64,000 nucleotides of DNA from contig CAZPRY010000007.1 of NCBI GenBank assembly GCA_964589175.1, positions 52,938-116,937 on the forward strand. The letters are read 5' to 3'. A model generated the notes under the pieces. The model had not been told where the DNA came from, ran no database searches, and saw only the letters and a program-made list of their open reading frames with translations. Position numbers and translations under genes: made by a program. Positions 9,356 to 46,853 of this stretch are shown piece by piece. The stretch's first letter is position 1; each line of letters starts with the position of its first letter. The stretch is from an uncultured bacterium. GTDB lineage: Bacteria; Fidelibacterota; UBA2242.

Positions 9356-12300
9356 CTATCGAATTATCATTACTTTGACGATCTTACTGATCGATTCACT
9401 GCCCTGCTGCGCTTTTACAACGGCAAAATACACGCCGCTCTGAACGCCGGAGACATCCCAGACTGTTTCGTTATAATCACCGACGAGGGGATCTTCATCC
9501 GTTAGCGCAGCCACGAAATCTCCGGCCAGATCGTAGACCTGGATCGAAACACGGCAGGATTTCCGGACGAAATAGCGGAATGCCGTTTCGTTACCTTTTA
9601 CCGGATTGGGCCAATTGAAAACACGCTGCAGATCAAGCAGTTCGTCCGGCGGCGGAGCTTGCGTATCGGATTTAATCGAGATGGAAAAATTGCGCTGGGG
9701 ATTGCTGCCGTAGGCAGTCCACATAATATCCGTCAACTGCCCCGCAGAGAGTTTACGCGCATTCAACTGAGTGCCGGCGGCATCCACAGAAACGTGTACG
9801 ATCCCGTCGGGCGAATCCAGCAATAGGACGCTGTTGCCATTGTAGACGGGAAGCGTGACGGGGAAATTCGGGAGCAGCTGGCCCTTGCGGTCGAAGGCTG
9901 CAATGCCGACACCATGAATTCCGGCGAGGAGCGTCAGCCGCCCGGCGTCATCACAGCTTGTCAGCAGGTAAGGATCGAAATAACTGTAGTTGAATTGGTT
10001 CGGAATCGACGCCGGAAAATTGGCTTCCAATACCAATCGCTCTGTGAAGACGTAGATGTGCGCCGAATCGGCCAAGGCGATCTCGATTTTGTCATCTCCG
10101 TCGATATCCGCCAGGACCGGGAACGGGTAATAATTTTTCAGTGGATAGGAAAATTGCCGGATGTTTTCCGGTTCCGCCAAAGCTGCATCCAGAACGGTGA
10201 CGATTCTATCTTCCCCGCAAAGGACCACATCCGCCACGCTGTTGTCGTCCAGCCAGCCGACCACCATATCGCCGATCATCGTCAGGTCGACATCGGTCAG
10301 CAGTTGCAGCGCCAGCGGCGCAGTTTCCAGCAGGTATAATTCCCCTTCCCCGCTAACAGCGAAAACCTGATCGGCATCCCCTGCTAGTCGCGCAATAGGC
10401 TCCGGCACGGAAATCTGTTCCGGACCGTAGCGCAAGATATTTTGGTCCGTTGCCGAATCGTAGAATGAAAAGAGCGGCTTGCCATGGAGAATCATTGCAT
10501 TGGAAGTGAGCACTGCCGCCGGGAAGGACTCCCGGTTGGCGTATTGCAGCCGATTATTGAGCAGGCGATAACGGTACAGACTCAGGCTGCCGTCAGTCTC
10601 CACAGTCGGGATATAGACGGAAATCTCGCCCGCATCGACGGCCAGCAGCGGCGTAGCAATGGTCGACAGATTGCTCGTAAAGCCAGTCGAGATCCGTTGC
10701 AGAATCATCCCCTGAGAATCGATCAGGAAAAGACTGTCCCGGTCCACCACAACGAAGTTCAAGACTCCGTCTTCCGCTCCTGTATCGAGCTGCAGCAGCC
10801 CCAGAATTTTTCGATCCTGACCCAATGGAAGGGGAAAATTTCCAAGGTTCCGATCCAGATGAATACGGAAATTCATCTGTTCGCCGGCGGGACCAATTTG
10901 ATCAATCGCGATCCCGGTGTAAGCATTGGCATAACTGCGCGACGAAGGTTGGGTGGAGTTCGTCAATCCGACACTGCGGATGGAGTCTTCCGGATATTCG
11001 GGATTCAAATCCCAGAAGCCGTCATTTCCGGCAAACCACGGATCGAAGTACCAGCCGATGTCGACATTCGCGCCGAAGAGCTGGCCTTCATAGCCAAGGT
11101 CCTGGGCGCCGTCGCCTTCCTCGAGATCAACCCCGCGGTGCTCCCGGTCGATATTGACTTTATTGGCTGAAAGATTTGCCTCGATCACCGATTCGTCGAT
11201 GTGCCAGATCAGCAATCCCGATCCGGGCAACCCGGCATCATACCGCGGCACGGACAGCAGGACTCCCGTTCGCGCCGAGAATTCCGCCTGCAGTGAATCG
11301 CGGATCAGCGGGAAAATCAGCGGCCATCTCTCCTCGCCGTTGTCTTTGTAAATTTTATACTGAATACTGTCGAGACTGACGCCCGGGCGCAGTTCGGCGT
11401 TGCGGTTCTCTACCAGGAAATATTCGTTTTCATCGATCGGAACCTTCCAGATGGATGAAGTCGTCGCCGTCTCGGCGTTTTGCAGCGTGATCTCCTGATC
11501 CGTCCCGGCCGGCAGCGGTTCTTCCCAACCCATAAAAACGCGTGACCAGGCCGTCGGAAGAGGCGGAATCAAACCGTTCAGATTGGCGGAACCCTGGTCC
11601 ATCAAACCGAACTTGCCGACGCCGGTTTCACCGGTTTCGGTATTGTACAATCCCGGCAATCCCAGATAGAAGCCGGTCATGAAGGCGAAGGTGCCGTTCA
11701 AGCCGATCTGGTAGGCACATGGTTCGTCGGCTCCGCCGAAAACTTCCTCCCAGTTCGAGAACAGCAGATGGTTTTGGGTTTCCGGTAAAATCATACCGGA
11801 TACAATCAGATCATTGCCGCCGTCGACCGGGATACCCGCAAACGACGCATTTCCCGGAGCAGCAAAGAGGGCCAGGTCACCGGTATTCAGATAAACCGAG
11901 GGAATATCGTAGGGCGTCGGATCCAAATCCAGATCGAAATCCTGCCCCACCCCGGCGTGGAATACAACCACGAGATCATAATCCGCGAACTGCAAATCCG
12001 CGTCCGCCAGTTGCACGGCTTCGTAAAATAGTTGCGCCAGGCGGGTATCCACCGAGTCTTTCACTAGAAACGGGTGGTAATATTCCATTTTACGGGGCAG
12101 CTGATAAGTCAGCGCGTCGTCGAGCGGATAGACCTCCGAACGCAGCGTATCAAGAAGCAGATGGCCTTTGGACACATGGCCGTAGTAGTTGGAAAGCGCC
12201 CGGATATGATCCTTGAAATAAGCCCTGTTATGCGGCGGTGGATCGACCACCAGGGAGGCGCAGACCGTGTCCTGGGCGGTGGTTAAAAACCGGCCGTCGC

Positions 12301-12496
12301 CGGTCGTGTAATCGCTTTCATCCGGGATAAAAGAAACCCGTAACGCACAGATTGATATGTTATTACTATGTGTCTGAACTTCTACAAGCCGCTTCCCCGT
12401 TTGCAGGGAAGGGCTAATTCGCCGCGTCGCGGAATCATTCGCCGCGAATAAAATATGGCATACCAGCAGAGCAAAAATAAGACGATGTATTTTCAT
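9356..12496 (-). CDS. Large secreted M6 (immune inhibitor A)-like pseudo-peptidase with a T9SS C-terminal sorting domain
   Basis: 1046 aa with a signal peptide. It matches the M6/InhA-conserved blocks VVFHAGVGQ and GLLIWHIDES. At the position of the catalytic HEFGHDLGLPDEYD it has FAFMTGFYLGLPGLYN, so the HExxH is lost. The C-terminal ~90 aa (NWPNPVKGNETAFRYFV...VSIQVYDLAGDFVAAL...SGVYFAVVKAQ) fits the T9SS type A CTD (TIGR04183-like). Confidence 0.65.
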   Translation of the reverse strand: MKIHRLIFALLVCHILFAANDSATRRISPSLQTGKRLVEVQTHSNNISICALRVSFIPDESDYTTGDGRFLTTAQDTVCASLVVDPPPHNRAYFKDHIRALSNYYGHVSKGHLLLDTLRSEVYPLDDALTYQLPRKMEYYHPFLVKDSVDTRLAQLFYEAVQLADADLQFADYDLVVVFHAGVGQDFDLDLDPTPYDIPSVYLNTGDLALFAAPGNASFAGIPVDGGNDLIVSGMILPETQNHLLFSNWEEVFGGADEPCAYQIGLNGTFAFMTGFYLGLPGLYNTETGETGVGKFGLMDQGSANLNGLIPPLPTAWSRVFMGWEEPLPAGTDQEITLQNAETATTSSIWKVPIDENEYFLVENRNAELRPGVSLDSIQYKIYKDNGEERWPLIFPLIRDSLQAEFSARTGVLLSVPRYDAGLPGSGLLIWHIDESVIEANLSANKVNIDREHRGVDLEEGDGAQDLGYEGQLFGANVDIGWYFDPWFAGNDGFWDLNPEYPEDSIRSVGLTNSTQPSSRSYANAYTGIAIDQIGPAGEQMNFRIHLDRNLGNFPLPLGQDRKILGLLQLDTGAEDGVLNFVVVDRDSLFLIDSQGMILQRISTGFTSNLSTIATPLLAVDAGEISVYIPTVETDGSLSLYRYRLLNNRLQYANRESFPAAVLTSNAMILHGKPLFSFYDSATDQNILRYGPEQISVPEPIARLAGDADQVFAVSGEGELYLLETAPLALQLLTDVDLTMIGDMVVGWLDDNSVADVVLCGEDRIVTVLDAALAEPENIRQFSYPLKNYYPFPVLADIDGDDKIEIALADSAHIYVFTERLVLEANFPASIPNQFNYSYFDPYLLTSCDDAGRLTLLAGIHGVGIAAFDRKGQLLPNFPVTLPVYNGNSVLLLDSPDGIVHVSVDAAGTQLNARKLSAGQLTDIMWTAYGSNPQRNFSISIKSDTQAPPPDELLDLQRVFNWPNPVKGNETAFRYFVRKSCRVSIQVYDLAGDFVAALTDEDPLVGDYNETVWDVSGVQSGVYFAVVKAQQGSESISKIVKVMIIR

Positions 12497-25165: not shown

Positions 25166-28100
25166 ATGAAGAAAATATTTTTAGTGCTTGTATTCGTTGC
25201 GCTGTGCCTTCCTTTAATCGGGTACTCGCAAAATTTTGGAAAAAATAAGGTCCAGTACGACGATTTCAACTGGTCTTATATTCAAACGCCGAATTTTGAC
25301 ATTTACTTCTACGACGACCGCGAGAAACTGGCGGAATTTGCGGCCCCGATCGCCGAACAGGTATTTACCGAGATCCACAGTATACTCAACTGGCGGATGC
25401 ACAAACGCACATCACTGATTCTGTATGCCTCGCACAGCGATTTTCAGCAGACCAATGTTCTGCTGGATTATCTTACCGAAGGCACCGGCGGATTTACGGA
25501 GCTTTTCAAAAACCGGGCCGTTGTCGCTTTCGACGGCTCGTATTCCGATCTCTGGCACGTCATCCGCCATGAGCTTGTCCACGTTTTCGTGAATGACATG
25601 ATTTACGGGGGCAACATCCAGAGCGTAATCTCGGGAAGAGTCCGCCTGAACATTCCGCTGTGGATGAATGAAGGCTTGGCGGAATACATCTCGATGGGCT
25701 GGGACACCAACGCCGATATGATCCTCCGTGATCTGGCCACGATGAACGAAATTCCGACCATCGATCAGCTAAACTACTATATGGCCTATAAAGGTGGACA
25801 GTCTGTCTACCGCTTCATTGCCGACAAATACGGCGAGCCAAAAATCGGCGAAATCTGGGACAAGATGAAAAGCCGTAAAAATGTCGAAAGAGGTTTTCGG
25901 GCATCGATCGGTATGGATACAAAAGAATTGACCGAAAAATGGCATCGCTGGCTGCGACGGGAATATTGGTCGGACGTGATCGACCGCAACGAGCTCGGAG
26001 AAATCTCAACCAAATTGACCGACCATGAAAAATTGCGCAATTACTTTAATACCAGCCCGGCAATCTCCCCGGCCGGAGATCAGGTTGCTATAATGTCGGA
26101 TCGCAAAGGCTACGCTGACATTTACCTGATTTCCATTATCGACGGCAAGGAAATCAAGAAAATTCTCAGCGGCCAGAAAAAGCCAGACCTGGAAGAGTTG
26201 AAATGGCTCTATCCGCGCCTGAGCTGGTCGCCCGACGGAAAGAAGATCGTGTTGGCCGTGAAGAGCGGCGAGAGCGACGGTTTAATTATCCTGGATGTCG
26301 AATCGGGCAACACCGAAAAGCACAATTTCGACGGAATCGAGGAATTGTTCACTGCCGCTTGGTCACCTAACGGACAGAAAATCGCCTTCGTCGGATTACA
26401 GAATGACCGCACCGACATTTTCCTGTACGACCTGTCCGCCGATGAGATTACGCAACTAACCGATGATCAGTATTCCGATTTTGAACCGGCCTGGTCGCCG
26501 GACAGTAAACAGTTGATTTTCTCATCGCAAAGAGGGCTGGAAGGCGACAGCCTGGGACTGGCTGGCGAGACCGACCTGTCCTCAGTCGTATTCCGCCAGA
26601 AAGACCTGTTCATCTATGATCTCGAAAGCAGTTCAACAAGGCGTGTTACCAGCACGGCCTGGAATGAGAATTATCCCGTTTGGGCCAACACTCGCAACGC
26701 CATTTTCTACACATCCGACAATTGCGGAATTTCCAATTTGCGCCTGCTGGATCTGGACACGCACGAGGACCGTACTCTCACGAACGTGATTACGGGCCTT
26801 TTCCAGCCCAGTCTGACCTTGGATGATTCCCGGCTCGTGTACGCCGGCTACGAAGATGTCGGCTGGGACATTTTTGTTATCAGCAATCCGTTGGAGATGG
26901 AAGACCTTTCGGCCAAAATCCGTCCCACAAACTACGCCATTGAGTTAGATGACCTATTGAATAGACCGGCTGTTGTCGTAGAGAAGGATACAACGAAATT
27001 ATCCCTGACGGAAGCGTCCTATACGAAAAACGTCGAGACGGACGCCAGTTATACCAATTATATTTTCGCGCCCGGATATGAGGATTACCAGCCGGAACCC
27101 ACCCCGGAAGACAGTGCAGGGATGAGCCCGGATTCGCTAAAATTTAAGACGGATGACGGCGACTATATCATCAACCAGTACAAAACCAAATTCACGCTTG
27201 ATTTGATCGACAGCCAGGCCGGCTATAACACTTTCTGGGGATTTCAGGGCACGACCGTCTTCGCCTTCAGCGACTTACTGGGCGATCATCGCTTCATGCT
27301 CGGAACGGAACTGTACATCGATCTCGAAAACAGCGATTACTACCTGGCCTATGAGTATCTCCAGAAACGGACCAACTATTCGGTAATGGGGTTCCACACG
27401 GCCAATTTCTTCGGACTCAGTTTCTACCAGGTGTTGCGCCTGCGAAATTACGGAGCGGATTTTTCCGTTTCACGACCATTCTCCAAATTCTCGCGCGTCG
27501 AACTCGGCGCAACTTCCTATAATGTCGAACAAAAGCTGATCAACCTGCTCACGGGTACAACCGATTACCATCGCAGCATCAACACGATTCTGCCCCGCAC
27601 TGCATTGATTTATGACAATACCCTCTGGGGCTACTTTTATCCCGTCGACGGCTGGAGAATGCGTCTGGATTTTATCGCCAGTCCGAAATACAACAACAAC
27701 AGCCTGCAATTTAATACGCTCGAAATGGATGCGCGCCGTTACTTCAAACTCAATCGCGAGTACTCCTTCGGATTGCGTTTGACAGCCGGTCTGAGCGAGG
27801 GTTCGAACGCCCAGCGATTCTTCCTCGGCGGCGAATCCAACTGGATAAACCAGCAATTCAAGCAATACCACAATTACGAAGATGTCGAATCGATCTACTT
27901 CTCCGAGTTCGTCACGCCCCTGCGCGGCGCCCGCTATTACGAAAGAGAGGGCGACCGTTTCTTTCTCGGCAATTTCGAATTTCGTTACCCCTTCATTAAA
28001 TATCTGGCCATGGGCTGGCCGATACCACTGACTATGGCGAGTATTCAGGGAGCGACTTTTCTGGATATCGGTTCGGCCTGGTTCGGAGATAAATTCCAGC

Positions 28101-28276
28101 CCTTCGGTAAAGATCCCTTCCGCGGCCTCTATATGAACGACCTGGTAAGCGGCTTCGGATTCGGGGCGCGCTTTTTCTTCGGATATTTCATTCTGAAAGT
28201 TGACGTCGCCTGGCGTTACGACTTCGACCAGGTCTCGGCGCCGCGCTACTATTTCTCGCTGGGTACGGATTTCTAA
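25166..28276 (+). CDS. Omp85-superfamily outer-membrane protein with an N-terminal Peptidase_MA_2-like zincin domain and TolB/PD40 beta-propeller repeats (paralog of 6299-9337)
   Basis: 1036 aa with a signal peptide. HELVHVFVNDM...WMNEGLAEYIS; PD40 repeats (WSPDGKKIVLAV, SPNGQKIAFVG, WSPDSKQLIFSS). The C-terminal barrel carries the Omp85 motifs RFFLGGESN, PLRGARYY and GFGFGARFFFGYFILKVDVAWRY, and ends ...SLGTDF. Confidence 0.75.
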   Translation: MKKIFLVLVFVALCLPLIGYSQNFGKNKVQYDDFNWSYIQTPNFDIYFYDDREKLAEFAAPIAEQVFTEIHSILNWRMHKRTSLILYASHSDFQQTNVLLDYLTEGTGGFTELFKNRAVVAFDGSYSDLWHVIRHELVHVFVNDMIYGGNIQSVISGRVRLNIPLWMNEGLAEYISMGWDTNADMILRDLATMNEIPTIDQLNYYMAYKGGQSVYRFIADKYGEPKIGEIWDKMKSRKNVERGFRASIGMDTKELTEKWHRWLRREYWSDVIDRNELGEISTKLTDHEKLRNYFNTSPAISPAGDQVAIMSDRKGYADIYLISIIDGKEIKKILSGQKKPDLEELKWLYPRLSWSPDGKKIVLAVKSGESDGLIILDVESGNTEKHNFDGIEELFTAAWSPNGQKIAFVGLQNDRTDIFLYDLSADEITQLTDDQYSDFEPAWSPDSKQLIFSSQRGLEGDSLGLAGETDLSSVVFRQKDLFIYDLESSSTRRVTSTAWNENYPVWANTRNAIFYTSDNCGISNLRLLDLDTHEDRTLTNVITGLFQPSLTLDDSRLVYAGYEDVGWDIFVISNPLEMEDLSAKIRPTNYAIELDDLLNRPAVVVEKDTTKLSLTEASYTKNVETDASYTNYIFAPGYEDYQPEPTPEDSAGMSPDSLKFKTDDGDYIINQYKTKFTLDLIDSQAGYNTFWGFQGTTVFAFSDLLGDHRFMLGTELYIDLENSDYYLAYEYLQKRTNYSVMGFHTANFFGLSFYQVLRLRNYGADFSVSRPFSKFSRVELGATSYNVEQKLINLLTGTTDYHRSINTILPRTALIYDNTLWGYFYPVDGWRMRLDFIASPKYNNNSLQFNTLEMDARRYFKLNREYSFGLRLTAGLSEGSNAQRFFLGGESNWINQQFKQYHNYEDVESIYFSEFVTPLRGARYYEREGDRFFLGNFEFRYPFIKYLAMGWPIPLTMASIQGATFLDIGSAWFGDKFQPFGKDPFRGLYMNDLVSGFGFGARFFFGYFILKVDVAWRYDFDQVSAPRYYFSLGTDF

Positions 28277-34338: not shown

Positions 34339-35112
34339 TTATCGCCTTGCGGAAAACCAGGGAAAAAAGGCACTGGTGCCGGCTTTGTAAGCTTCGAATT
34401 CAGGATTGCCGGCGTATTTCTTTTCCAGCATGGGAATTCCGGAGACTTTCAACAATAGAAAGCTAATCGCCAGCGGGCTGATTATCGCCGTCCAGCCGTA
34501 CGGCAGCGGCAACGCGAGCAGGAAAACGCCCCACCACATCGCCGTCTCGCCGAAGTAATTCGGATGCCGTGTGCAGCGCCAGAGCCCGGTTGTCATGATT
34601 TTGCCCCGATTGGCGGGATTCTTTTTAAAGCGGCTCATCTGGTAATCACCGACAGCCTCGAAAAAGAAGCCGATCACCCAGATCATTCCGCCGGCCATTT
34701 CAATCAAACCAACGGGGGTGAACGGTGCAACAGTTATGAGTACAAGCGGGTAAGCCACGATCAGCATTATCAAACCCTGCAGCATGAAAATCTGCAGGTA
34801 GCTGCGCAGAACGAAGTTTCTGCCCCATTCTCTGCGCCAGGCGGCATAGCGAAAATCCTCTCCCCTGCCGCGATTGCGGAAGAAGACGTAGACGGCTAAC
34901 CGTAATCCCCACAGCAGCATCAGGAAGTACGCAATTCCACGCATCCCGGGAAAAGGGTGCCCATAAATGATCGTTACGATTGAAACGAGGATAAAACCCG
35001 GGCCCCAGCCGATATCCACAATCGAGTTGTCTTTGAGGGTTAAGGCCAGCAGGAATAACAGCGTCATGTAGACAAATATAGCAACGGCTGAAATAGTTAA
35101 TAGCTCGATCAT
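34339..35112 (-). CDS. DUF1295/steroid 5-alpha-reductase-like polytopic membrane protein
   Basis: Multi-TM protein. The C-terminal motif TTGLWRCTRHPNYFGE is characteristic of the DUF1295/ICMT/5-alpha-reductase fold. Confidence 0.7.
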   Translation of the reverse strand: MIELLTISAVAIFVYMTLLFLLALTLKDNSIVDIGWGPGFILVSIVTIIYGHPFPGMRGIAYFLMLLWGLRLAVYVFFRNRGRGEDFRYAAWRREWGRNFVLRSYLQIFMLQGLIMLIVAYPLVLITVAPFTPVGLIEMAGGMIWVIGFFFEAVGDYQMSRFKKNPANRGKIMTTGLWRCTRHPNYFGETAMWWGVFLLALPLPYGWTAIISPLAISFLLLKVSGIPMLEKKYAGNPEFEAYKAGTSAFFPWFSARR

Positions 35113-35257: not shown

Positions 35258-36001
35258 TTAAAATTGCCCGACAGTGAAGAACTGCTTCACGGCCGAGATG
35301 CCCGATATTTTGGCTTGCTCCACGCTCCCGCTGAAAAGGATTTTACCGTCTTCCAGGAAAATAACCCGGTCGGCGACACGGTGGATACTGGCCAGCTCGT
35401 GGGTTACGATTACAATCGTCATATTCAACTGGTCGCGCAGTTTCAGAATTAATTCATCGAGCGAAGCACTGGTCAGCGGATCCAGGCCGGCCGACGGCTC
35501 GTCGCAGAAAAGAATTTTAGGATCGAGGGCGATGGCACGCGCCAGGGCGGCCCGCTTTTTCATACCGCCCGATAATTCGGACGGCAGGAGCTGCAAAGCA
35601 TGCCCCAGATTCACCAGGCCCAGTTTCACCTCGACGATTTTTTCGATGAGATCGCGGGAGAGGCGCGTATGCTGTTCGAGCGGCATGGCTACGTTGTCGG
35701 CCACGCTGATCGAGTTGATCAAGGCGCCGTTCTGGAACAGCATCCCGATGTGGATCAGAATCGCCTCGAAAGCGTTCTCGTCCATTCCGATGGTTTCCTG
35801 ACCGAGGATTTTCACTGATCCGCTTTCGGGATCGTGCAGGCGCAGGATATTTTTCAGCAACGTGGTTTTCCCGCAGCCGCTGCCGCCGATAATCACGGAA
35901 ATTTCGCCCGCGTAAATATCGAGATTGATATCACTCAGAATGACCCGTTCGTCATAACGGGCGATCATATTTCTGACTGCGATGATCGGGTTCTTTTCCA
36001 T
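35258..36001 (-). CDS. mlaF: ABC transporter ATP-binding protein, MlaF-like
   Basis: Walker A GGSGCGKTT, signature LSGGMKKRAALARA, Walker B ILFCDEPSAGLD. About 250 aa with no TM domain. Confidence 0.85.
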   Translation of the reverse strand: MEKNPIIAVRNMIARYDERVILSDINLDIYAGEISVIIGGSGCGKTTLLKNILRLHDPESGSVKILGQETIGMDENAFEAILIHIGMLFQNGALINSISVADNVAMPLEQHTRLSRDLIEKIVEVKLGLVNLGHALQLLPSELSGGMKKRAALARAIALDPKILFCDEPSAGLDPLTSASLDELILKLRDQLNMTIVIVTHELASIHRVADRVIFLEDGKILFSGSVEQAKISGISAVKQFFTVGQF

Positions 36002-37189
36002 TTAAATCATATAGAAGAGACTAAACAGGGCATCCAGAATAATCACGGCGAAAATAGAGGCGACGACCGCTTTGGTGGTGACTTTGCCGACGCCTTCCGC
36101 ACCGCCCTTGACTTGGAAGCCGAAATAGCTGCCGATGATGACAATCACCCAGGCAAAGAAGATGCTTTTACTGAAGCCGATCAGCAAATCCTCGGCATTC
36201 AGAATTAAGATGGTCTCATTCATGTAGGCCGACACCGATAGCCCCAGGTAAGTCAGACCGATCAGGACGCCGCCTAAAATACCGGCCGCGATCGAGAGCA
36301 TGACCAGGAGCGGCATACAGAAAGTCATGGCGTGCAGTTTGGGAATCACCACATAACGGACGGGGTGAATCGCCATCATCTTCAGGGCATCGATCTCTTC
36401 GGTCACTTTCATCGTGGCAATCTCGGCCGCGATGGCCGATCCGCTGCGGCCCGCCACCAGAATCGCCGTCATCATCGGCCCCATCTCCCGTACCATCGAT
36501 ACCGCCAAGAGATCGGCGACATAGATATTCGCACCGAATTGCCGCAGCTGCGCCGCCGATTGCAGGGCCAGGATCAAGCCCAGGATGAAAGACAGCAGGC
36601 CGACGATACCGACCGCATCCGCGCCGATCAGCAGCGCCTGCTGCAGGACGGCCCCCTTGCGCTGTCCGCGATGGTTAAAAAGCCCGATAAAAGACCAGAA
36701 GGCGATGTCCGACGTCAGGTACATCCCCTCGACGAATGCTTTCCAGGCCTGGTAGAAATTATTCCCGATAGCCTCTAAGAAATTCGGTGAGGGTTTTTTC
36801 GCGGCGGGTTTCAGGCGTTTGCCTGAGAAGGTGCTGATCGTATCCCGGAAATGATCCGGAACGCGGCTCAGTTCGATATCGGGCTTCCGGAGCTTTTCGG
36901 CGATCCAGTCCAGAAAGGCCACGCCGCTGCTGTCCAGCACCGTTAGCGCCTGCAGATCGATGCTCTTCGCCGCAGTGGCATCCAACCGCGAAAACTGTTT
37001 CGTCAGGAGCGGAACGGTCTCTTTGGTCAGTTCCCCTTCGAGCTGAATGCGCGCGCTCTCTTTATCGAATGATAATCCCACTTTCTTCTCTTCATCCTCC
37101 CCGGTTGTGTCCGGAACTGAAAGATTTGCCTCAGCGCAGGAAATAGGTGATGCGCAGGAACAGCGTGTGCCGGTCGACAATATACTCAT
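36002..37189 (-). CDS. mlaE: MlaE-like ABC permease fused to an N-terminal STAS (MlaB-like) domain
   Basis: The N-terminal ~110 aa match a STAS anti-sigma-antagonist fold (LTVLDSSGVAFLDWI). The C-terminal ~260 aa form an MlaE/YrbE permease. The first 59 nt overlap the upstream lipoprotein gene; the true start may be GTG near 37081. Confidence 0.8.
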   Translation of the reverse strand: MSILSTGTRCSCASPISCAEANLSVPDTTGEDEEKKVGLSFDKESARIQLEGELTKETVPLLTKQFSRLDATAAKSIDLQALTVLDSSGVAFLDWIAEKLRKPDIELSRVPDHFRDTISTFSGKRLKPAAKKPSPNFLEAIGNNFYQAWKAFVEGMYLTSDIAFWSFIGLFNHRGQRKGAVLQQALLIGADAVGIVGLLSFILGLILALQSAAQLRQFGANIYVADLLAVSMVREMGPMMTAILVAGRSGSAIAAEIATMKVTEEIDALKMMAIHPVRYVVIPKLHAMTFCMPLLVMLSIAAGILGGVLIGLTYLGLSVSAYMNETILILNAEDLLIGFSKSIFFAWVIVIIGSYFGFQVKGGAEGVGKVTTKAVVASIFAVIILDALFSLFYMI

Positions 37190-39254
37190 TGCCGTCTTCG
37201 GACTGTTTATTGCGCAGACGGATTTTGTAATCCAGGGATATGTATTTGAATAATTTCAGATTGAATACATTTTCCCACTCCACCGCCATATCCTGGTCCG
37301 GATTGAACGGAAACAGGAAATCGGCGGTTGTGTAATAGGTCAGGTTGAGCGGCAGCTGGAAATTGCCCACCACCGATACCTCGGTACCCTCCTTGTAGGC
37401 CGATTCCTTCTCGATATACACTTTATAGACCTCGCTGCCGATTGTCTCCGGCACATCCGAAAGATTGAATACATTGTCGTTGATATCCTGGCGCATACCG
37501 AATCCGAAACGCAGGTTCAGGTTGGCCTGCGCCGTGTTGAAAATCCGGTAGTTGATGCCGACGCCCTCTTTCAACACCAACGGAAAAAAAGGCTGCTTGA
37601 TGCTAACCTTATCCACGCCAATCCTGCGCTCCAGGTCGTTCCCGTTCAGGTCTTTTTTGACATAATTAAAATCACCGGCGCTGTAAAAATTTTCCATGAA
37701 TAAATGGCTCTCGGTATCGAATCTTCCGTAGAAACCGATGTTTTTGAAGAAATAATAGATAAACGTATTCTTGAGATAAAAATCATCCGTTGAAATCCGG
37801 AACCCGGTATCCGTGGTTTTGGTCGTCCCCAGTTCGATCAGGTTGCGCATGGTATAGTGAATCGGCCGCTTATCAAAGATCACGGTATTGTCGAACTGCG
37901 TATTCAGGGTGACGGTGACCTCATGATTCTCCTTATCCTTCTCGTTATCACTGTTCATGTTGGCGTTGCCGTGAACGGCATTCGAGAAGCGCCAGTTTTC
38001 CAGAGAGGTGAGCAGGTCGCCCTCTTCCAGAATACCGGCTCCGAGCATGGTGGTCGGGTTACCCTCGTCATCGGTATCAACCACGATCGTGAACTTCTTG
38101 ACCTGACCTTCTTCGAGGAAAACCGTGCCGAAATCGCGGTAAGTATTGAACGTCTCTCCGTTAATCGTGATTTTGTACAGGGCGGGTTTCAGAACCCAGA
38201 TTTTCTGCTGTTCGCCGAGCTCCTTCTCGGCCGGAAATTCGGTTCCGTAGCTCATGCCGCTCTCCGAATCGAAAATCTCATAGCGCACTTTGGCGAAGTT
38301 GCGTTTCTCATCAATAACATCCACGATCAGGCAACCCCAGACGGGCTCGATAATCGTTTTATAGCGTGGAATGATCTCGATCTCCTCAGTACCCATCAAC
38401 TGCGCAACGCTGCCAGATCCGTATTTCACGGAATACTTGCCTTCCTCAAGCGGCATGGGTACGCCCATCTGCCCGGCGATTTCCTGCCCCTCCGCATCGT
38501 ATATTTTATACGGCGGTTCGTTATTGGTCTTGGTAATCGAAGGCAAAAGCAGCGATCCCATTCCCTGCGATTCCCCCTCGTCGGGAACCATTTCGACGAT
38601 TCGCTCTTCATCTTTTATTTGATCGGATTTGAGGATGGGCCGTTTCTCCCGGAAACTGATGATGATCTTCTCGATGAATTTGTCACTCTCCTCCATGATC
38701 ATATCGTTGATAATCTGCACATACGTCTCGACTTCATCATCCAGCAAAACCCGCTCACGATTCATCGAATGCTGCACCTGGTAGGTCTGCTGATCCATGC
38801 GGCGGAGATAAAAATCCATGTTCAGCCGGGCCTCTTTGACGGATTCGGATTCATAGAGTTCGATGTTGTTAATCTGGGTAAAAACAACGTAATCCGGCCG
38901 GGCTTCGGTGATTTCACGTTCCACGTGCCGGAATACGTTATAACGTTCGAGCCGTTTGCCGATCAGGTTGGGAATGATCTCCGACAATTCCACGGCCCAG
39001 ATATCATGGCTGGAATAGGTGATCCGCGGTCCGAAATGACGCACAACCAGTTGTTTGCGATCGTAGGTATTCGGAATCTTGGTATCTTCGACGATTGCCG
39101 AAAAATTAAAGGGCTGGGTTTGAATCAATTCCGGCTTTTCGGAATAGGGAAAATACTCCAGCACATAATAATTGGTCGGCACCGCCTGTCGAAACGAACA
39201 TCCCACCATCAGGAAAAGCAGCAGGAACGGGATAACTTTATGTATAGATTTCAT
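37131..39254 (-). CDS. Lipoprotein with an N-terminal PqiC/YmbA-like (DUF330, ABC-transport auxiliary) domain fused to a ~500-aa beta-strand-rich C-terminal domain
   Basis: Lipobox LMVGCS. The N-terminal ~190 aa (NYYVLEYFP...) resemble PqiC-type MCE-associated lipoproteins. The C-terminal part has alternating hydrophobic/polar dyads and an aromatic-rich terminus (...RITYFLR), which suggests an OM beta-barrel. Confidence 0.6.
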   Translation of the reverse strand: MKSIHKVIPFLLLFLMVGCSFRQAVPTNYYVLEYFPYSEKPELIQTQPFNFSAIVEDTKIPNTYDRKQLVVRHFGPRITYSSHDIWAVELSEIIPNLIGKRLERYNVFRHVEREITEARPDYVVFTQINNIELYESESVKEARLNMDFYLRRMDQQTYQVQHSMNRERVLLDDEVETYVQIINDMIMEESDKFIEKIIISFREKRPILKSDQIKDEERIVEMVPDEGESQGMGSLLLPSITKTNNEPPYKIYDAEGQEIAGQMGVPMPLEEGKYSVKYGSGSVAQLMGTEEIEIIPRYKTIIEPVWGCLIVDVIDEKRNFAKVRYEIFDSESGMSYGTEFPAEKELGEQQKIWVLKPALYKITINGETFNTYRDFGTVFLEEGQVKKFTIVVDTDDEGNPTTMLGAGILEEGDLLTSLENWRFSNAVHGNANMNSDNEKDKENHEVTVTLNTQFDNTVIFDKRPIHYTMRNLIELGTTKTTDTGFRISTDDFYLKNTFIYYFFKNIGFYGRFDTESHLFMENFYSAGDFNYVKKDLNGNDLERRIGVDKVSIKQPFFPLVLKEGVGINYRIFNTAQANLNLRFGFGMRQDINDNVFNLSDVPETIGSEVYKVYIEKESAYKEGTEVSVVGNFQLPLNLTYYTTADFLFPFNPDQDMAVEWENVFNLKLFKYISLDYKIRLRNKQSEDGNEYIVDRHTLFLRITYFLR

Positions 39255-39268
39255 CGGCTTTCCTACGA

Positions 39269-40252
39269 TTATTTTTTAGAACGTAAAAGGAAAGATGGAT
39301 CGTCGCTGATCTGCCGCGAAAATTCATTCAGATAATCAGCCGTCTCTTTGAGTACCTCGAGCGATTTGAGCAAATCCTGCCGCCCGCGCAGTACCACCAG
39401 GTCGACGTGCGCAAAGGTGGTGTTGATCTGATTCACCGCCTTGCGGATATCCTCGATGGTCGCAACCAGGTCCGTTTGGCTCAGGCTTTCGGAGAATTGG
39501 GCGGTGTTGACGAGGACGTCGCGGATTTCGGGCGAATCCAGGATGGCGTTCAGCTTTTCCAGGGTCGCGTTGGCGGAAATGCTCAATTGGTTGAGATTGG
39601 CGGAGGTCGCCCCGATGTTGGCGATCGTCGCGGCGATTGGTTGCCGGTTCTCGCTGATCACCAGGTTCAGATTTTCCAGTACCTCACTCACTCTTTCGCG
39701 GTTCTCGCTGATGAGTGTGTCGCTGTTGGCCAGAATTCTGCTGATCTTCTCACGGTTCGAAATGTTCGTGATCTCGCCGAGATTCTGAATCAGCAGTTCG
39801 AGCTTCTCGGCAATGTCTTCCGCTTTCCCCGTGATGTCATCGAAATAGGAACTCCCGGCGTTAATACGGGCCCCGGGTTCGAGCAGCACGGCCTCGTTCG
39901 AACCGCCGGTCAATTCAATCTGTTTCAGGCCGGTGATGCCGACCGTAACCAGCGTCGCGTAGACATCTTCCTTGATCGGGGTCCCCTGTTTAATTCCGAT
40001 CTTGACGATGACGTTCCGGATATCCTCCTTATCGATCGAAATATCATCGACTCCGCCGATATTGATACCGGAGTATTTGACGGAACTGCCGATCTGCAGG
40101 CCGTTCACGGATGCGTCCCGGTAATGAATATAATAGGTATCTTTGCGTTCCATGAGCTTATTGCCGGCCACGATAATGAAGAAACCAATCAGCAGTGCGG
40201 AACAGAGCAGGATAAAAATTCCCAGTCGAAATTTTTGTGCTTTACTAATCAT
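39269..40252 (-). CDS. mlaD: MCE-family protein (MlaD-like)
   Basis: An N-terminal TM anchor, an MCE domain (YYIHYRDASVNGLQIGSSVKYSGINIGGVDDISI...), and a long C-terminal coiled-coil/helical extension. Confidence 0.85.
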   Translation of the reverse strand: MISKAQKFRLGIFILLCSALLIGFFIIVAGNKLMERKDTYYIHYRDASVNGLQIGSSVKYSGINIGGVDDISIDKEDIRNVIVKIGIKQGTPIKEDVYATLVTVGITGLKQIELTGGSNEAVLLEPGARINAGSSYFDDITGKAEDIAEKLELLIQNLGEITNISNREKISRILANSDTLISENRERVSEVLENLNLVISENRQPIAATIANIGATSANLNQLSISANATLEKLNAILDSPEIRDVLVNTAQFSESLSQTDLVATIEDIRKAVNQINTTFAHVDLVVLRGRQDLLKSLEVLKETADYLNEFSRQISDDPSFLLRSKK

Positions 40253-40303
40253 TGCTTACCGATTCTAAGCGCGCACGCATTTGAGTTGAGAATCTACGGA
40301 AAT

Positions 40304-41272
40304 CTAATGATTATTTCCGCTCGCGTCGAGATTATCTTTTTCATCGTAGGCTTTGATGATCTCTTTCACCAGACGATGGCGAACCACATCGCGGGAATCA
40401 AAATAGATAAAATCGATTCCGTCGATTCCCTGCAGGATACGCTGGGCTTCGATCAGACCCGAGTGCTCCTTATTGGGAATATCGATCTGGGTAATATCGC
40501 CGGTAATGATGGCCTTCGAGTTGGCGCCCAGGCGCGTCAGGAACATCTTCATCTGCATACTGGAGGTGTTCTGGGCTTCATCCAGGATCACGTAAGCATT
40601 GTTGAGAGTCCGCCCGCGCATATAGGCCAGCGGCAGAATCTCGATCGAGTGCTGTTCGGTGTAGTTGCGCAGTTTTTCGGGCGGCAGCATGTCATGCAGA
40701 GCATCGTCCAGCGGCGCCAGATAGGGCTCGATCTTCTCCTTTAAATCTCCGGGCAGGAACCCGAGACTTTCGCCGGCTTCCACCGCCGGCCGGGTCAGGA
40801 TAATGCGCTGAACGTCGTGATTGCGCAGGGCCGCCACGGCAATCGCCACCGCCAGGTAGGTTTTCCCGGTACCCGCCGGTCCGATCGCAAAGACGATATC
40901 GTTCTTCAACGTCGACCGATAATAGTTTTCCTGGCTCAGCGAGCGCGGCTTGATCACCCCGCTTTTCTTGAAAAGAATCACCGTTTCCGGCGTAATCTCA
41001 CCCTGCAACCGGCCGCCGCCGGTCTCGACATTGACCAGCGCCCGGATATCGTTTTCGTCCACAAAGCCCTTTTGGTTGATCGTCAGGAGCATCTCCCCCA
41101 GGATGCGGTCAACCTGGTCGATGCAGGCCGGTTCGCCTTCCAGGGTCACCCGGTTCCCGCGCGCGAATATCTTCAGCGGAAAACTCTTCTCCAGCAGGGT
41201 TAAAAAAATATCATTGGCACCGTACACCAGAAACGGATCAACGCCGCGTAATTCTATAACCTTCGAACTCAT
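40304..41272 (-). CDS. phoH: PhoH family ATPase
   Basis: Walker A FAIGPAGTGKTYLAVAIAV, and PhoH signature blocks throughout the protein. Confidence 0.9.
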   Translation of the reverse strand: MSSKVIELRGVDPFLVYGANDIFLTLLEKSFPLKIFARGNRVTLEGEPACIDQVDRILGEMLLTINQKGFVDENDIRALVNVETGGGRLQGEITPETVILFKKSGVIKPRSLSQENYYRSTLKNDIVFAIGPAGTGKTYLAVAIAVAALRNHDVQRIILTRPAVEAGESLGFLPGDLKEKIEPYLAPLDDALHDMLPPEKLRNYTEQHSIEILPLAYMRGRTLNNAYVILDEAQNTSSMQMKMFLTRLGANSKAIITGDITQIDIPNKEHSGLIEAQRILQGIDGIDFIYFDSRDVVRHRLVKEIIKAYDEKDNLDASGNNH

Positions 41273-44576: not shown

Positions 44577-46853
44577 TTAATCCGTTTTCCTGTTTTTAGA
44601 AGGATCTGTCTGTGAAAACAGTCCGGTCCGTTTCCGTCTCCCGGAACGTCCCCTGGGCCCGCCTTTGGTCAAAGCCTCATACATCTGTTTGGAACTTTTG
44701 CATTCGAGCAGCAGGTCGCGCCCTTCTTCATTTAGGGCCTGGCTGATCATCGACATGAACTGCATATGCGGCGCTGAGGCGCTTTCCGGCGAGAGGGTCA
44801 GGATAATTATTTTGGCCGGCTGCCCGTCAATCGAATCGAAATTGATTCCATCCGTTTTCAAGCCGATGGCACAGACCAGTTTCACGACCGCGTCCGTCCG
44901 GCCGTGCGGAATGGCGATTCCGAATTGAATCCCGGTCGACATGCTTTCTTCCCGGGCCATGACCGCCTCCCGGGCTTTTTTCAAATCTTTGATCAGGCCG
45001 TTTTGATCGAGAACATTTAAAAGTTCATAAATGATCTCCACCTTGGTCCGGCCGCTCAGATTCGGCTTCAGGACATTCCGGGTGATGTAAGCCGACAGAT
45101 CGGGCCGATGCAGTCCATCCGGAACATGTTCCTGGAGTTTGCGGCCGATCTCCACGCCATCAATCGGTTTGCGCAGTTCCTTGATCATGGCTTCAAACTC
45201 CGCCAGCACCTCATACATAGCGGTATTGATGTAGGGCACCTGGATTTTGCTGCAATCGAATTGAATCAATCCGTCCTTGCGCTGAATGTCGATGACAATA
45301 TCGTCCTTGCGCAACTGGTACAATTCTTTACGCTGGCTGAGAGTATGGACGTAGAATCCTTCCGTATCGAAAAGATATAATAATTTGGACAGGATCAGCT
45401 CGGCGGTCTGGATCGATGGGAATTTGAAATTCACATAGGTCACTTCCTCGGCCACCTGCTGTTTCCGCACGCCGCTGCCGGGACGCCGGAAAAGCCGGAT
45501 CAGGACCGGGGGGGCAGCCAGAGTCGTGAGCAGCGTCATGAGCACACCAACGCCGAAGATTTCAGGCGTCAGAATTCCGGCAGCCAGTCCGATGCCGGCC
45601 ACAATCAGGGCAACCTCACCTCTCGGCAGCATTCCGACACCGATACGCAGGGCTCCGCGCAGATTAAAATTCGTCAGAAGCGCGGGCAAGCCGCCGCCTA
45701 AAATTTTGGCTACGATCGCAAGCAGAGAATAGATAATTCCGAAAAGGAGCACGCTTCGCGAGGCAAAAAGCCGGACGTTGACCAGCATGCCCATTACGGT
45801 GAAAAAAATCGGCACCAGAAAGGCCTGGATCGGATTCAGTTTTTCCATGATGACCTGGTTGATATCGGTCTTGGACAGTGACAATCCCATGATATAGGCT
45901 CCGATGATCATCGCCAGGCCGGCTTCCTCAAACATACCGGCCAGGATCAGAGCCAGCCCCAACGACATCATCGCAATCGAGGAGCGATCGCCAAACCATT
46001 TCAGAAGGATGCTGATCTTGCGCGACATTATCAGGCCGATGGCGGTGGCGGCCAGCCAGATGCCGATGGCCTTTGCCGCAATGATGCCGATATGTCCCCA
46101 ATCCACACTCCCCGAATGCTGCGAAGCCGAAATGATACCGAGACCAATCGCCAGCAGAACAATGCCGATTACGTCATCGATCACCGCTCCGGCTAGAATC
46201 GTGACACCTTCGGGGGAATCGAGATGGTTTTGTTCGGATAGAATTCGCGCCGTAATACCCACGGATGTCGCCGTCGAAATGATTCCCAGAAACAGGCTGG
46301 ACGGCGCAAAAAAACCGTGGTGTACGCCGAAGAGCAGCTTGGAAAACAAGACGGCGGATAGATCCCCCAGTAAGAAAGAGAAAATCACACCGCCGATGCC
46401 GACCAGGCTGCCTACAACCGAATAGCGCAAGAACAGTTTGAGGTCCGTTTCCAGGCCGATCATGAAGAGCAGCACAATCGAAGCCAGGGTGCAGACGCCG
46501 TAAAGCTCCGGGGAAACCGGAAATTCAGCGGTGAAGACCGGGAAGATCCCGTTGGGAAAAAGGGGCAAGGAAATACCGCCCAGAATATAAGGCCCGATGA
46601 AAATTCCGGCGCTGAGTTCACCCAGCACACCGGGCATATTCAGGCGCTCGAAGAGCAGATTGCCCAGGCGGGCCGCGAAAAGGATGATGCCGAGCTGCAG
46701 CATCAACATCATCATTCTGTGCGTCATCGTCATGCTGGCGGGCCCAATTTCGGAGCCCATCAGCCCCGTCAGCGGTAGTAACACCACTAAAACTATGAAT
46801 ATTTTATTCCAGCTGATTTTCAATTTTCCACCTTTATGAGAAGACTGATGCAA
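44577..46853 (-). CDS. CPA2-family cation:proton antiporter fused to a C-terminal PTS EIIA type-2 (PtsN/EIIA-Ntr-like) domain
   Basis: The N-terminal ~420 aa form a Kef/NapA-type multi-TM antiporter. The C-terminal ~150 aa contain the PTS_EIIA_2 phosphorylatable-His region (GIAIPHGRTDAV...IIILTLSPES). Confidence 0.8.
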   Translation of the reverse strand: MHQSSHKGGKLKISWNKIFIVLVVLLPLTGLMGSEIGPASMTMTHRMMMLMLQLGIILFAARLGNLLFERLNMPGVLGELSAGIFIGPYILGGISLPLFPNGIFPVFTAEFPVSPELYGVCTLASIVLLFMIGLETDLKLFLRYSVVGSLVGIGGVIFSFLLGDLSAVLFSKLLFGVHHGFFAPSSLFLGIISTATSVGITARILSEQNHLDSPEGVTILAGAVIDDVIGIVLLAIGLGIISASQHSGSVDWGHIGIIAAKAIGIWLAATAIGLIMSRKISILLKWFGDRSSIAMMSLGLALILAGMFEEAGLAMIIGAYIMGLSLSKTDINQVIMEKLNPIQAFLVPIFFTVMGMLVNVRLFASRSVLLFGIIYSLLAIVAKILGGGLPALLTNFNLRGALRIGVGMLPRGEVALIVAGIGLAAGILTPEIFGVGVLMTLLTTLAAPPVLIRLFRRPGSGVRKQQVAEEVTYVNFKFPSIQTAELILSKLLYLFDTEGFYVHTLSQRKELYQLRKDDIVIDIQRKDGLIQFDCSKIQVPYINTAMYEVLAEFEAMIKELRKPIDGVEIGRKLQEHVPDGLHRPDLSAYITRNVLKPNLSGRTKVEIIYELLNVLDQNGLIKDLKKAREAVMAREESMSTGIQFGIAIPHGRTDAVVKLVCAIGLKTDGINFDSIDGQPAKIIILTLSPESASAPHMQFMSMISQALNEEGRDLLLECKSSKQMYEALTKGGPRGRSGRRKRTGLFSQTDPSKNRKTD

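What the first reader, a model, noticed from the sequence alone, without database searches (positions are those of the whole stretch)
37131..39254. PqiC-like MCE-auxiliary lipoprotein fused to a ~500-aa putative beta-barrel, encoded between mlaD and mlaE
The operon order is mlaD (MCE), then this 707-aa lipoprotein, then STAS-mlaE, then mlaF. PqiC/YmbA-type lipoproteins are about 190 aa and anchor MCE systems at the outer membrane (established knowledge). Here that domain carries a long C-terminal extension with beta-barrel-like amphipathic periodicity. It could bring together OM anchoring and an OM conduit, which in other bacteria are split among MlaA/OmpC or PqiC.
Basis: partly seen in the sequence, partly recalled or inferred. 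Interest (0 to 1): 0.6.

Follow-up and report, generated by a model that had tools for sequence, protein, structure and literature searches.

The report
PqiC lipoprotein fused to outer-membrane barrel
This gene joins the outer-membrane "cap" lipoprotein of a lipid-transport machine to a predicted membrane-spanning barrel that related bacteria encode as the next gene, which points to a previously unrecognised outer-membrane partner for this class of transporters.

Summary
It has a signal peptide with an invariant lipobox Cys19. A PqiC-fold domain follows (aa ~20-202; PF03886 above threshold; Foldseek TM 0.81-0.85 to PqiC, XCC0632 and 6OSX), then a disordered linker.

The C-terminal extension is not one 500-aa barrel. 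It is about 180 aa of periplasmic beta-sandwich followed by a 16-strand barrel of about 290 aa (AF2 pLDDT 90.8; DUF481 above threshold).

The main new result concerns aa ~228-707. This module also exists as a standalone, unannotated secreted protein of 500-600 aa in MAGs labelled KSB1, Caldithrix, Zhuqueibacterota and others. In 27 of 28 other places examined, it is fused to a PqiC-like gene or lies directly after one, inside an MCE operon. A rough tree suggests the fusion arose at least twice.

The best reading is that this protein is the outer-membrane end of a trans-envelope Mla/Pqi-type lipid transporter. A recent paper raised the idea that PqiC-like rings work with a barrel, and these data give genomic evidence for it. 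Whether the barrel is a conduit or only an anchor is untested. It is a new variant of a known kind.

The parts
39198..39254 (-). Signal peptide and lipobox (aa 1-19, ...LMVG-C19)
   Evidence: Cys19 is invariant in 60 homologues, and the N-termini show L-x-[GAS]-C.
38649..39197 (-). PqiC-like alpha/beta domain ending in a long helix (aa ~20-202)
   Evidence: PF03886 scores 33.8 bits against a gathering score of 26. Foldseek gives TM-target 0.83 to 2iqi, 0.81 to 8q2c (E. coli PqiC) and 0.85 to 6osx.
38565..38648 (-). Poorly conserved, disordered linker (aa ~203-230) at the fusion junction
   Evidence: pLDDT is below 50 for aa 204-230. There is no consensus here in alignment A1. Standalone relatives begin to match at query aa ~228-232.
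38025..38564 (-). Periplasmic all-beta region (aa ~231-410), probably two small beta-sandwich subdomains
   Evidence: AF2 on the module alone gives pLDDT about 90, with strands only. No Pfam or PDB sequence match was found.
37134..38024 (-). Predicted 16-strand outer-membrane beta-barrel (aa ~411-707)
   Evidence: AF2 strands span aa 421-705. PF04338 DUF481 scores 24.4 bits against a gathering score of 21.1. Foldseek gives probability 1.00 to OMP barrels. The dyad amphipathicity is reached by 0 of 2000 shuffles.
39269..40252 (-). Long MlaD/MCE protein (327 aa): TM helix, MCE domain, then a ~200-aa helical tail
   Evidence: PF02470. The best solved relative by sequence is the 312-aa MCE protein 13hr_I, E 4.4e-21, aligned over aa 4-280.
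39281..39304 (-). Conserved C-terminal MlaD motif DDPSFLLR (family consensus (E/D)(N/D)PSLLLR), a candidate PqiC-docking peptide
   Evidence: The motif is recognisable in all 24 MlaD sequences from fused and split operons. The docking role is inferred from PA3213-PA3214 (PMC13631591).
36002..37189 (-). MlaE permease with an N-terminal STAS (MlaB-like) domain; probable true start GTG 37081
   Evidence: PF02405 scores 251 bits and TIGR00056 scores 240 against a cutoff of 212. STAS_2 scores 26.3 bits, below its gathering score of 29.2. The start codon is discussed.
35258..36001 (-). MlaF-like ABC ATPase
   Evidence: PF00005 scores 104.9 bits. The best NCBIfam match is MlaF, below its equivalog cutoff.

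Best explanation
The ORF encodes the outer-membrane (OM) subunit of a four-gene trans-envelope MCE lipid transporter. This transporter resembles the 'Mla-Pqi chimeric' type (P. aeruginosa PA3211-PA3214, Brucella Mpc).

Shown by computation: the protein is a lipoprotein with a PqiC-fold domain, a flexible linker, a periplasmic beta-sandwich region and a 16-strand OM barrel. The sandwich+barrel module is a separate gene directly after a PqiC-like gene in related lineages. MlaD carries a long helical tail with a conserved C-terminal peptide.

Inferred by analogy with PA3213-PA3214 and PqiB-PqiC: MlaF2E2, with a STAS domain on MlaE, powers transport at the inner membrane. Hexameric MlaD forms an MCE ring and a helical needle that crosses the periplasm. 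The PqiC domains assemble as a ring around the needle tip and bind the MlaD C-terminal peptide.

My committed inference is that the covalently attached barrel sits in the OM next to that ring and forms the site where lipid leaves or enters the OM. It would also fix the ring to the membrane. The substrate (probably glycerophospholipid) and the direction of transport are unknown.
For: Domain anatomy comes from Pfam, AF2 and Foldseek. The lipobox is conserved and the barrel strands are amphipathic.

Rosetta-stone evidence: the module occurs standalone. In 27 of 28 other distinct places it is fused to a PqiC-like gene or lies immediately downstream of one, in an operon with MlaD, MlaE and MlaF. 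This holds in two different gene orders. There are two separate fused clades in a rough NJ tree.

MlaD is closest to a solved 312-aa needle-type MCE protein and has a conserved C-terminal motif. PMC13631591 shows a PqiC-like octamer around an MCE needle with the C-terminal peptide in a groove. That paper states that a porin partner is possible but not known.
Against: There is no experimental data for any member. The inter-domain arrangement is not confidently predicted (pTM 0.40 for the full length). A 1:1 fusion forces as many barrels as PqiC subunits (eight, if the ring is octameric). This differs from PelC12-PelB1 and has no precedent. Foldseek matches to solved barrels are generic (TM <= 0.51), so nothing indicates a lateral gate or a lipid-sized lumen. 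In E. coli Mla the porin partner is a scaffold, not the lipid path. One locus (L026) has the module next to MlaE without PqiC, MlaD or MlaF.
Confidence: 0.55

Rival explanations
1. Anchor or scaffold only. The barrel and sandwich domains rivet the PqiC ring to the OM, or to peptidoglycan or other OM proteins. Lipid moves between the needle tip and the inner leaflet of the OM without using the barrel, much as OmpC/F scaffolds MlaA.
For: Structurally characterised PqiC-like rings work without any known barrel (PMC13631591, PMC10897342). The Veillonella MlaD barrel was judged too narrow for lipid passage (PMC10665443). No gate-like feature was detected here.
Against: The lipoprotein already has a lipid anchor with an invariant Cys. 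A porin-sized 16-strand barrel plus ~180 aa of conserved periplasmic domains seems a lot for anchoring alone. It has been kept next to PqiC across several lineages and was probably fused at least twice.
Confidence: 0.3
2. Uptake route for exogenous hydrophobic nutrients. The barrel would be a FadL/TodX-like entry channel and the MCE/ABC system an importer, like mycobacterial Mce or chloroplast TGD with the TGD4 barrel. It would serve organisms that live on fermentation substrates.
For: FadL, TodX and CymD hydrophobic-substrate channels are among the Foldseek hits (E about 1e-5 to 1e-6). MCE systems with a barrel partner (TGD4) are importers (cited in PMC13631591).
Against: The FadL-type hits are no better than those to porins, autotransporters or OmpG, with low TM-scores (<= 0.30) and rmsd of 10-16 A. 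No hatch domain is present. No catabolic genes are conserved next to the operon, and the flanking genes differ in every locus.
Confidence: 0.12
3. Artefact. A frameshift or assembly error has joined two neighbouring genes (pqiC and the barrel gene) in this window.
For: Split versions with overlapping stop and start codons exist in other lineages.
Against: 44 of these are 50%-identity cluster representatives. They share one continuous frame and lack the second signal peptide.
Confidence: 0.01

Closest known systems
P. aeruginosa PA3211-PA3214, Brucella abortus MpcEFDA and the Xanthomonas XCC0632 operon (Mla-Pqi chimeric MCE systems)
   Same: All have a MlaFE-type ABC transporter, one elongated MlaD-like MCE protein of about 310-330 aa with a helical needle, and a PqiC-like OM lipoprotein in one operon. 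The window's MlaD is closest by sequence to a solved 312-aa MCE protein. The PqiC domain superposes on XCC0632 and PqiC.
   Different: Those lipoproteins are single-domain (about 190-215 aa) and no barrel partner is known for them (PMC13631591). Here the lipoprotein carries, or in sister lineages is followed by, a sandwich+barrel module of about 480 aa. MlaE also carries a fused STAS domain.
E. coli PqiABC
   Same: It has a PqiC-fold lipoprotein that caps an MCE needle at the OM.
   Different: Pqi uses PqiA (no ABC ATPase) and a three-MCE-domain PqiB. It has no barrel.
Veillonella parvula long MlaD with a C-terminal beta-barrel (PMC10665443)
   Same: An MlaFED system reaches the OM through a covalently attached barrel, without MlaA or MlaC.
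   Different: In Veillonella a 10-strand barrel sits on MlaD itself. Here a 16-strand barrel sits on the PqiC-like lipoprotein and MlaD ends in a short peptide. That study found no barrel on MlaD in FCB or PVC phyla.
PelC-PelB and LptE-LptD (a lipoprotein of PqiC-like fold working with an OM barrel)
   Same: A lipoprotein with the same core fold cooperates with a barrel to move a substrate into or across the OM. PMC13631591 uses the PelBC parallel to suggest that PqiC-like rings might use a porin.
   Different: The substrates differ (Pel polysaccharide, LPS) and so does the stoichiometry (12:1 and 1:1 plug-in-barrel). LptD has 26 strands. The proteins are not fused and there is no sequence relationship to this barrel.
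MlaA-OmpC/F and chloroplast TGD4
   Same: These are OM components of MCE pathways that involve a barrel.
   Different: MlaA has an unrelated fold and OmpC is a general porin encoded elsewhere. TGD4 is LptD-like. Neither is linked to a PqiC-like protein.
DUF481 (E. coli YdiY) and DUF3078 predicted OM barrels
   Same: There is weak Pfam similarity over part of the barrel.
   Different: Those are small standalone barrels (profiles of 210 aa and 92 aa) of unknown function. The match covers only profile positions 89-192 of 210. Most standalone relatives of the module have no Pfam hit at all.

Membership tests
PqiC / ABC_trans_aux (PF03886) MCE-auxiliary lipoproteins | Match to the family HMM above the curated threshold | tested here: met
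   33.8 bits against a gathering score of 26, over aa 51-186.
PqiC / ABC_trans_aux (PF03886) MCE-auxiliary lipoproteins | PqiC alpha/beta fold | tested here: met
   Foldseek TM-target 0.81-0.85 and rmsd 2.4-3.5 A to 8q2c, 2iqi and 6osx. This is a predicted model with pLDDT about 70-90 in this domain.
PqiC / ABC_trans_aux (PF03886) MCE-auxiliary lipoproteins | N-terminal lipobox cysteine (OM lipoprotein) | tested here: met
   The sequence reads LMVG-C19, and the Cys is invariant in 60 homologues. Lipidation and OM sorting themselves were not testable.
PqiC / ABC_trans_aux (PF03886) MCE-auxiliary lipoproteins | Encoded with an MCE protein | tested here: met
   It lies 14 nt downstream of MlaD. 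This arrangement is conserved in the related loci.
PqiC / ABC_trans_aux (PF03886) MCE-auxiliary lipoproteins | Homo-octameric ring with a groove that binds the MCE C-terminal peptide | not testable with these tools
   Only single-chain prediction was available. The conserved MlaD tail is compatible with this feature.
PqiC / ABC_trans_aux (PF03886) MCE-auxiliary lipoproteins | Single-domain protein of about 190 aa | tested here: not met
   The protein is 707 aa with three further regions. It is therefore a member by domain but not by architecture.
Transmembrane OM beta-barrel (DUF481 / DUF3078-like) | Closed antiparallel barrel with an even number of strands | tested here: met
   The AF2 model of the module has pLDDT 90.8 and 16 strands. 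Foldseek gives probability 1.00 to OMP barrels. This is a prediction only.
Transmembrane OM beta-barrel (DUF481 / DUF3078-like) | Alternating hydrophobic and polar residues along the strands | tested here: met
   Mean |delta KD| is 2.35 against 1.19 +/- 0.22 in shuffles, and 0 of 2000 shuffles reach it.
Transmembrane OM beta-barrel (DUF481 / DUF3078-like) | Pfam family threshold | tested here: inconclusive
   DUF481 scores 24.4 against 21.1, so it passes, but it covers only half of the profile. DUF3078 scores 20.1 against 25 and fails.
Transmembrane OM beta-barrel (DUF481 / DUF3078-like) | C-terminal beta-signal ending in an aromatic residue | tested here: inconclusive
   The fused proteins end ...TYFLR or ...TYFLK. 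The standalone relatives shown end mostly in F or Y, some in L.
Mla-Pqi chimeric trans-envelope MCE system (PA3211-14 / Mpc type) | MlaE permease, MlaF ATPase, elongated single-MCE protein and PqiC-like lipoprotein in one operon | tested here: met
Mla-Pqi chimeric trans-envelope MCE system (PA3211-14 / Mpc type) | Complex physically spans the inner and outer membranes | not testable with these tools
   This is inferred from the MlaD length (327 aa against 312 aa for the solved relative) and from the literature.
Canonical E. coli-type Mla pathway (MlaFEDB + MlaC + MlaA-OmpC) | Periplasmic MlaC shuttle and MlaA lipoprotein | not tested
   Neither is encoded in the operon. The rest of the window was sampled only in part, and the rest of the genome is not available.
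Veillonella-type barrel-bearing MlaD | Beta-barrel at the C-terminus of MlaD | tested here: not met
   MlaD ends in a helical region plus a short conserved peptide, with no beta region.

The most novel reading that the evidence does not exclude
The sandwich+barrel module is the long-sought OM translocon of PqiC-type MCE machines. Together with the PqiC ring it would extend the hydrophobic MCE tunnel into or through the outer membrane, as LptDE does for LPS or PelBC for Pel. Lipids could then be inserted into or extracted from the OM directly. More divergent, unrecognised barrel partners might then exist for PqiC-like systems in Proteobacteria.
Probability: 0.3. Interest if true: 0.85.

Novelty: new variant of a known kind. 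Interest (0 to 1): 0.68.

Why it matters
How MCE lipid transporters hand lipids to or from the outer membrane is an acknowledged gap. [quoted passage not shown] A dedicated barrel family sits directly after the PqiC-like gene in nearly every operon sampled, and it has probably been fused to that gene at least twice. This is classic gene-fusion evidence for a physical PqiC-barrel partnership.

It names a concrete candidate OM partner and gives testable constructs, both fused and split. It also fits the report that FCB-group MlaD proteins lack the barrel seen elsewhere (PMC10665443). In these lineages the barrel sits on or beside the lipoprotein instead.

Tried and rejected
- NCBIfam gave no family for the protein.
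- A sequence profile of the module against all PDB chains gave 0 hits.
- The PqiC domain had no meaningful PDB relative by sequence alone. Only fold comparison sees the relationship.
The narrower one returned only 17 genomes, so the taxonomic range is under-sampled and rests on MAG labels. Several labels ('uncultured Cytophagia', 'Armatimonadetes') look unreliable.
- The promoter/terminator scan was uninformative. Counts were close to those of shuffled sequence (11 vs 6.0 +/- 2.8 promoter-like; 10 vs 7.1 +/- 2.7 terminator-like).
- I considered an LptDE-style plug-in-barrel arrangement and rejected it. A 16-strand barrel is too small to hold a ~180-aa domain. This is an inference, not a computation.
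- I considered a gene-fusion artefact and rejected it on conservation.
- A literature search for any described PqiC-barrel partner, and for DUF3078 or DUF481 linked to MCE, found nothing. The library is incomplete, so a prior description cannot be excluded.
Full report
**Observation.** The ORF at 37131-39254 on the minus strand encodes 707 aa. It starts 14 nt after a 327-aa MlaD/MCE gene (39269-40252). It is followed by a STAS+MlaE gene (36002-37189) and a MlaF gene (35258-36001). A PhoH gene lies upstream and a DUF1295 gene downstream. Neither neighbour is conserved in related loci.

The maximal mlaE ORF overlaps the 3' end of the 707-aa gene by 59 nt. The in-frame GTG at 37081 would give 359 aa, which matches homologues of 341-376 aa. 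tblastn alignments to other loci mostly begin at aa 39-50. The overlap is therefore probably not real.

**Anatomy.** Pfam places ABC_trans_aux (PF03886, the PqiC/YmbA family) at aa 51-186, at 33.8 bits against a gathering score of 26. DUF481 lies at aa 564-687 (24.4 bits against 21.1). A sub-threshold DUF3078 match lies at aa 447-519. NCBIfam has nothing.

The N-terminus is a signal peptide with a lipobox. Cys19 is invariant in 60 homologues.

AlphaFold2 on the full length (60-sequence alignment, pLDDT 79.8, pTM 0.40) gives these regions:
- an alpha/beta domain ending in a long helix (aa ~25-202);
- a disordered linker (aa 204-230);
- an all-beta region (aa 231-408);
- a run of long antiparallel strands (aa 421-706).

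Foldseek against the PDB matches the first domain to XCC0632 (2iqi, TM-target 0.83), E. coli PqiC (8q2c, 0.81) and 6osx (0.85). It matches the last region to outer-membrane barrels.

A second model covered aa 228-707 alone, with an 88-sequence alignment of fused and standalone relatives. It reaches pLDDT 90.8 and pTM 0.64, and shows two groups of short strands followed by 16 long strands. I read the two groups as two small sandwich subdomains. Each carries a G/P-x-Y-K motif.

The barrel's solved neighbours are generic: autotransporter, OmpG, FadL and porin barrels, with TM <= 0.49 in this module-only search. A sequence profile of the module finds no PDB chain. The strands show the dyad hydrophobic pattern expected of a membrane barrel. 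Mean face difference is 2.35, against 1.19 +/- 0.22 in shuffles, and 0 of 2000 shuffles reach it.

**Distribution.** The word-indexed search found 187 relatives. The 120 listed are 676-727 aa, 50-100% identical and near full coverage. Where named, most are called 'PqiC family protein' or 'DUF481 domain-containing protein', and most are from Candidatus Cloacimonetes/Cloacimonadota MAGs.

I infer from this that the window is from that phylum. A T9SS C-terminal sorting domain elsewhere in the window is compatible with an FCB-group organism.

The exhaustive search of 50%-identity representatives found 642 proteins at E <= 1e-3. I classified the best 150 with HMMs of the two halves:

| Class | Count |
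|---|---|
| Fusions | 44 |
| Standalone proteins matching only query aa ~228-707 | 76 |
| Module-only, N-truncated or with a long N-terminus | 10 |
| PqiC-only | 9 |
| Fragments or other | 11 |

Across all fetched proteins, the standalone ones have a median length of about 520 aa. Only 6 of 176 have a lipobox-like motif, so most appear to have an ordinary signal peptide.

Most standalone forms have no Pfam hit and are called 'hypothetical'. The MAG labels include candidate division KSB1, Calditrichaeota/Caldithrix, Zhuqueibacterota, 'Gemmatimonadota' and 'Cytophagia'. Some of these labels look unreliable.

**Genomic context (the key result).** I examined 28 distinct places outside the window: 27 distinct loci with DNA plus one without.

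| Arrangement | Places |
|---|---|
| Fused to a PF03886 domain | 4 |
| Immediately downstream of a separate PF03886 gene of 181-263 aa, sometimes with overlapping stop and start codons | 23 |
| Module followed by STAS-MlaE, with no PqiC, MlaD or MlaF within 5 kb (L026) | 1 |

Apart from the exception L026, wherever the contig extends far enough these places sit in an operon with MlaD, MlaE and MlaF.

Two gene orders occur. One is MlaD-PqiC-module-MlaE-MlaF, as in the window. The other is MlaE-MlaF-MlaD-PqiC-module (L023, L024, L025 and the P0369 place). Flanking genes differ from locus to locus, so the conserved unit is this four- or five-gene module.

A neighbour-joining tree of the module (midpoint-rooted, no bootstrap) puts the 700-714-aa fusions in one clade nested among standalone forms. 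It puts three longer fusions (724-798 aa) in a distant clade. One of these, P0354, was seen in its operon and has the second gene order. This suggests at least two fusion events, but the tree is rough.

**The MCE partner.** The window's MlaD has a TM helix, one MCE domain and about 200 aa of further sequence. Among solved structures its best sequence match is 13hr_I, a 312-aa 'Mce/MlaD domain-containing protein' (E 4.4e-21), aligned from residue 4 to 280 and so well into the post-MCE region. The length of 312 equals that given for PA3213 in PMC13631591. That 13hr is PA3213 is my inference.

All 24 MlaD sequences from fused and split operons share a C-terminal motif (E/D)(N/D)PSLLLR, with minor variants. 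In the window it reads DDPSFLLR, aa 317-324.

[quoted passage not shown] PqiC and Brucella MpcA are proposed to behave likewise (PMC10897342, PMC12436622).

By analogy, I propose the following:
- MlaF2E2 (with the STAS domain on MlaE) powers transport at the inner membrane.
- The MlaD hexamer forms an MCE ring and a needle across the periplasm.
- The PqiC domains form a ring at the needle tip and bind the PSLLLR tail.
- The attached barrel sits in the OM.

The domain composition, the gene linkage and the conserved tail are shown by computation. The ring, the peptide docking, the membrane location, and the substrate and direction of transport are inferred.

I commit to the barrel being the lipid entry or exit site as well as an anchor (confidence 0.55). 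The anchor-only alternative is serious (0.3), because OmpC/F is a scaffold in E. coli Mla and no gate feature could be examined here.

A fusion forces a 1:1 ratio of barrel to PqiC subunit. That means eight barrels per ring if the ring is octameric, which has no precedent and remains unexplained.

**Comparison with known systems.** The system works like the Mla-Pqi chimeric systems and meets their gene-content definition. The protein is a PqiC-family member by HMM, fold, lipobox and context, but not by architecture.

It differs from Veillonella MlaD, where a 10-strand barrel sits on MlaD itself. That study reported no such barrel on MlaD in FCB and PVC phyla (PMC10665443). It parallels PelC-PelB and LptE-LptD only in principle.

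[quoted passage not shown] My literature searches found no description of a PqiC-linked barrel. The library is incomplete, so this is not proof of absence.

The finding is a new variant of a known kind of system. Its specific value is gene-fusion and gene-order evidence for a dedicated outer-membrane barrel partner of PqiC-like lipoproteins. Everything functional remains to be tested.

Noticed in passing
window 36002-37189 (-): MlaE carries an N-terminal STAS/MlaB-like domain. STAS_2 scores 26.3 bits, below its gathering score, and NCBIfam mlaB scores 27 bits, far below its cutoff. The fusion recurs in most related operons. The annotated-length ORF overlaps the upstream gene by 59 nt, but GTG 37081 is the likelier start (359 aa).
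   Followed up: partly
window 39281-39304 (-); MlaD genes of L001-L025: A motif (E/D)(N/D)PSLLLR, with minor variants, lies a few residues before the MlaD C-terminus. It is present in all 24 sequences compared, in fused and split operons of both gene orders.
   Followed up: partly
Standalone module proteins, e.g. P0160 aa 31-39: Standalone forms have a nearly invariant W..P....Q motif just after the signal peptide. It is absent from the fusions, whose corresponding stretch is a disordered linker. It may be the non-covalent PqiC-docking element, but this was not tested.
   Followed up: no
L026 5001-7717: This is the one exception. Here the module gene is followed by STAS-MlaE only, with no PqiC, MlaD or MlaF within 5 kb.
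   Followed up: partly
L003 4111-5984: This operon has two tandem MlaD genes (243 aa and 354 aa) upstream of the fusion gene.
   Followed up: no
L028 10019-10756 (-); L001 13412-14112: Small separate DUF481 (245 aa) and DUF3078-like genes lie 4-5 kb from the operon in two loci. This may be coincidence.
   Followed up: no
window 37857-39335 (+) and 39407-40744 (+): Long ORFs of 492 aa and 445 aa run antisense to the fusion gene and to mlaD. No homology was sought. They are most likely shadow ORFs of the coding strand.
   Followed up: no
window 44577-46853 (-): A Na+/H+ exchanger domain is fused to a C-terminal PTS EIIA-2 domain (758 aa).
   Followed up: no
window 9356-12496 (-), 6299-9337 (-), 25166-28276 (+): There are three proteins of about 1000 aa. 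One has a T9SS C-terminal sorting domain and no other Pfam hit. Two have PD40/DPPIV_N beta-propeller repeats, and one of these also has a Peptidase_MA_2 domain.
   Followed up: no
window 34339-35112 (-): A DUF1295 membrane protein (steroid-reductase/ICMT-like) lies directly downstream of mlaF. This neighbour is not conserved in related loci.
   Followed up: partly
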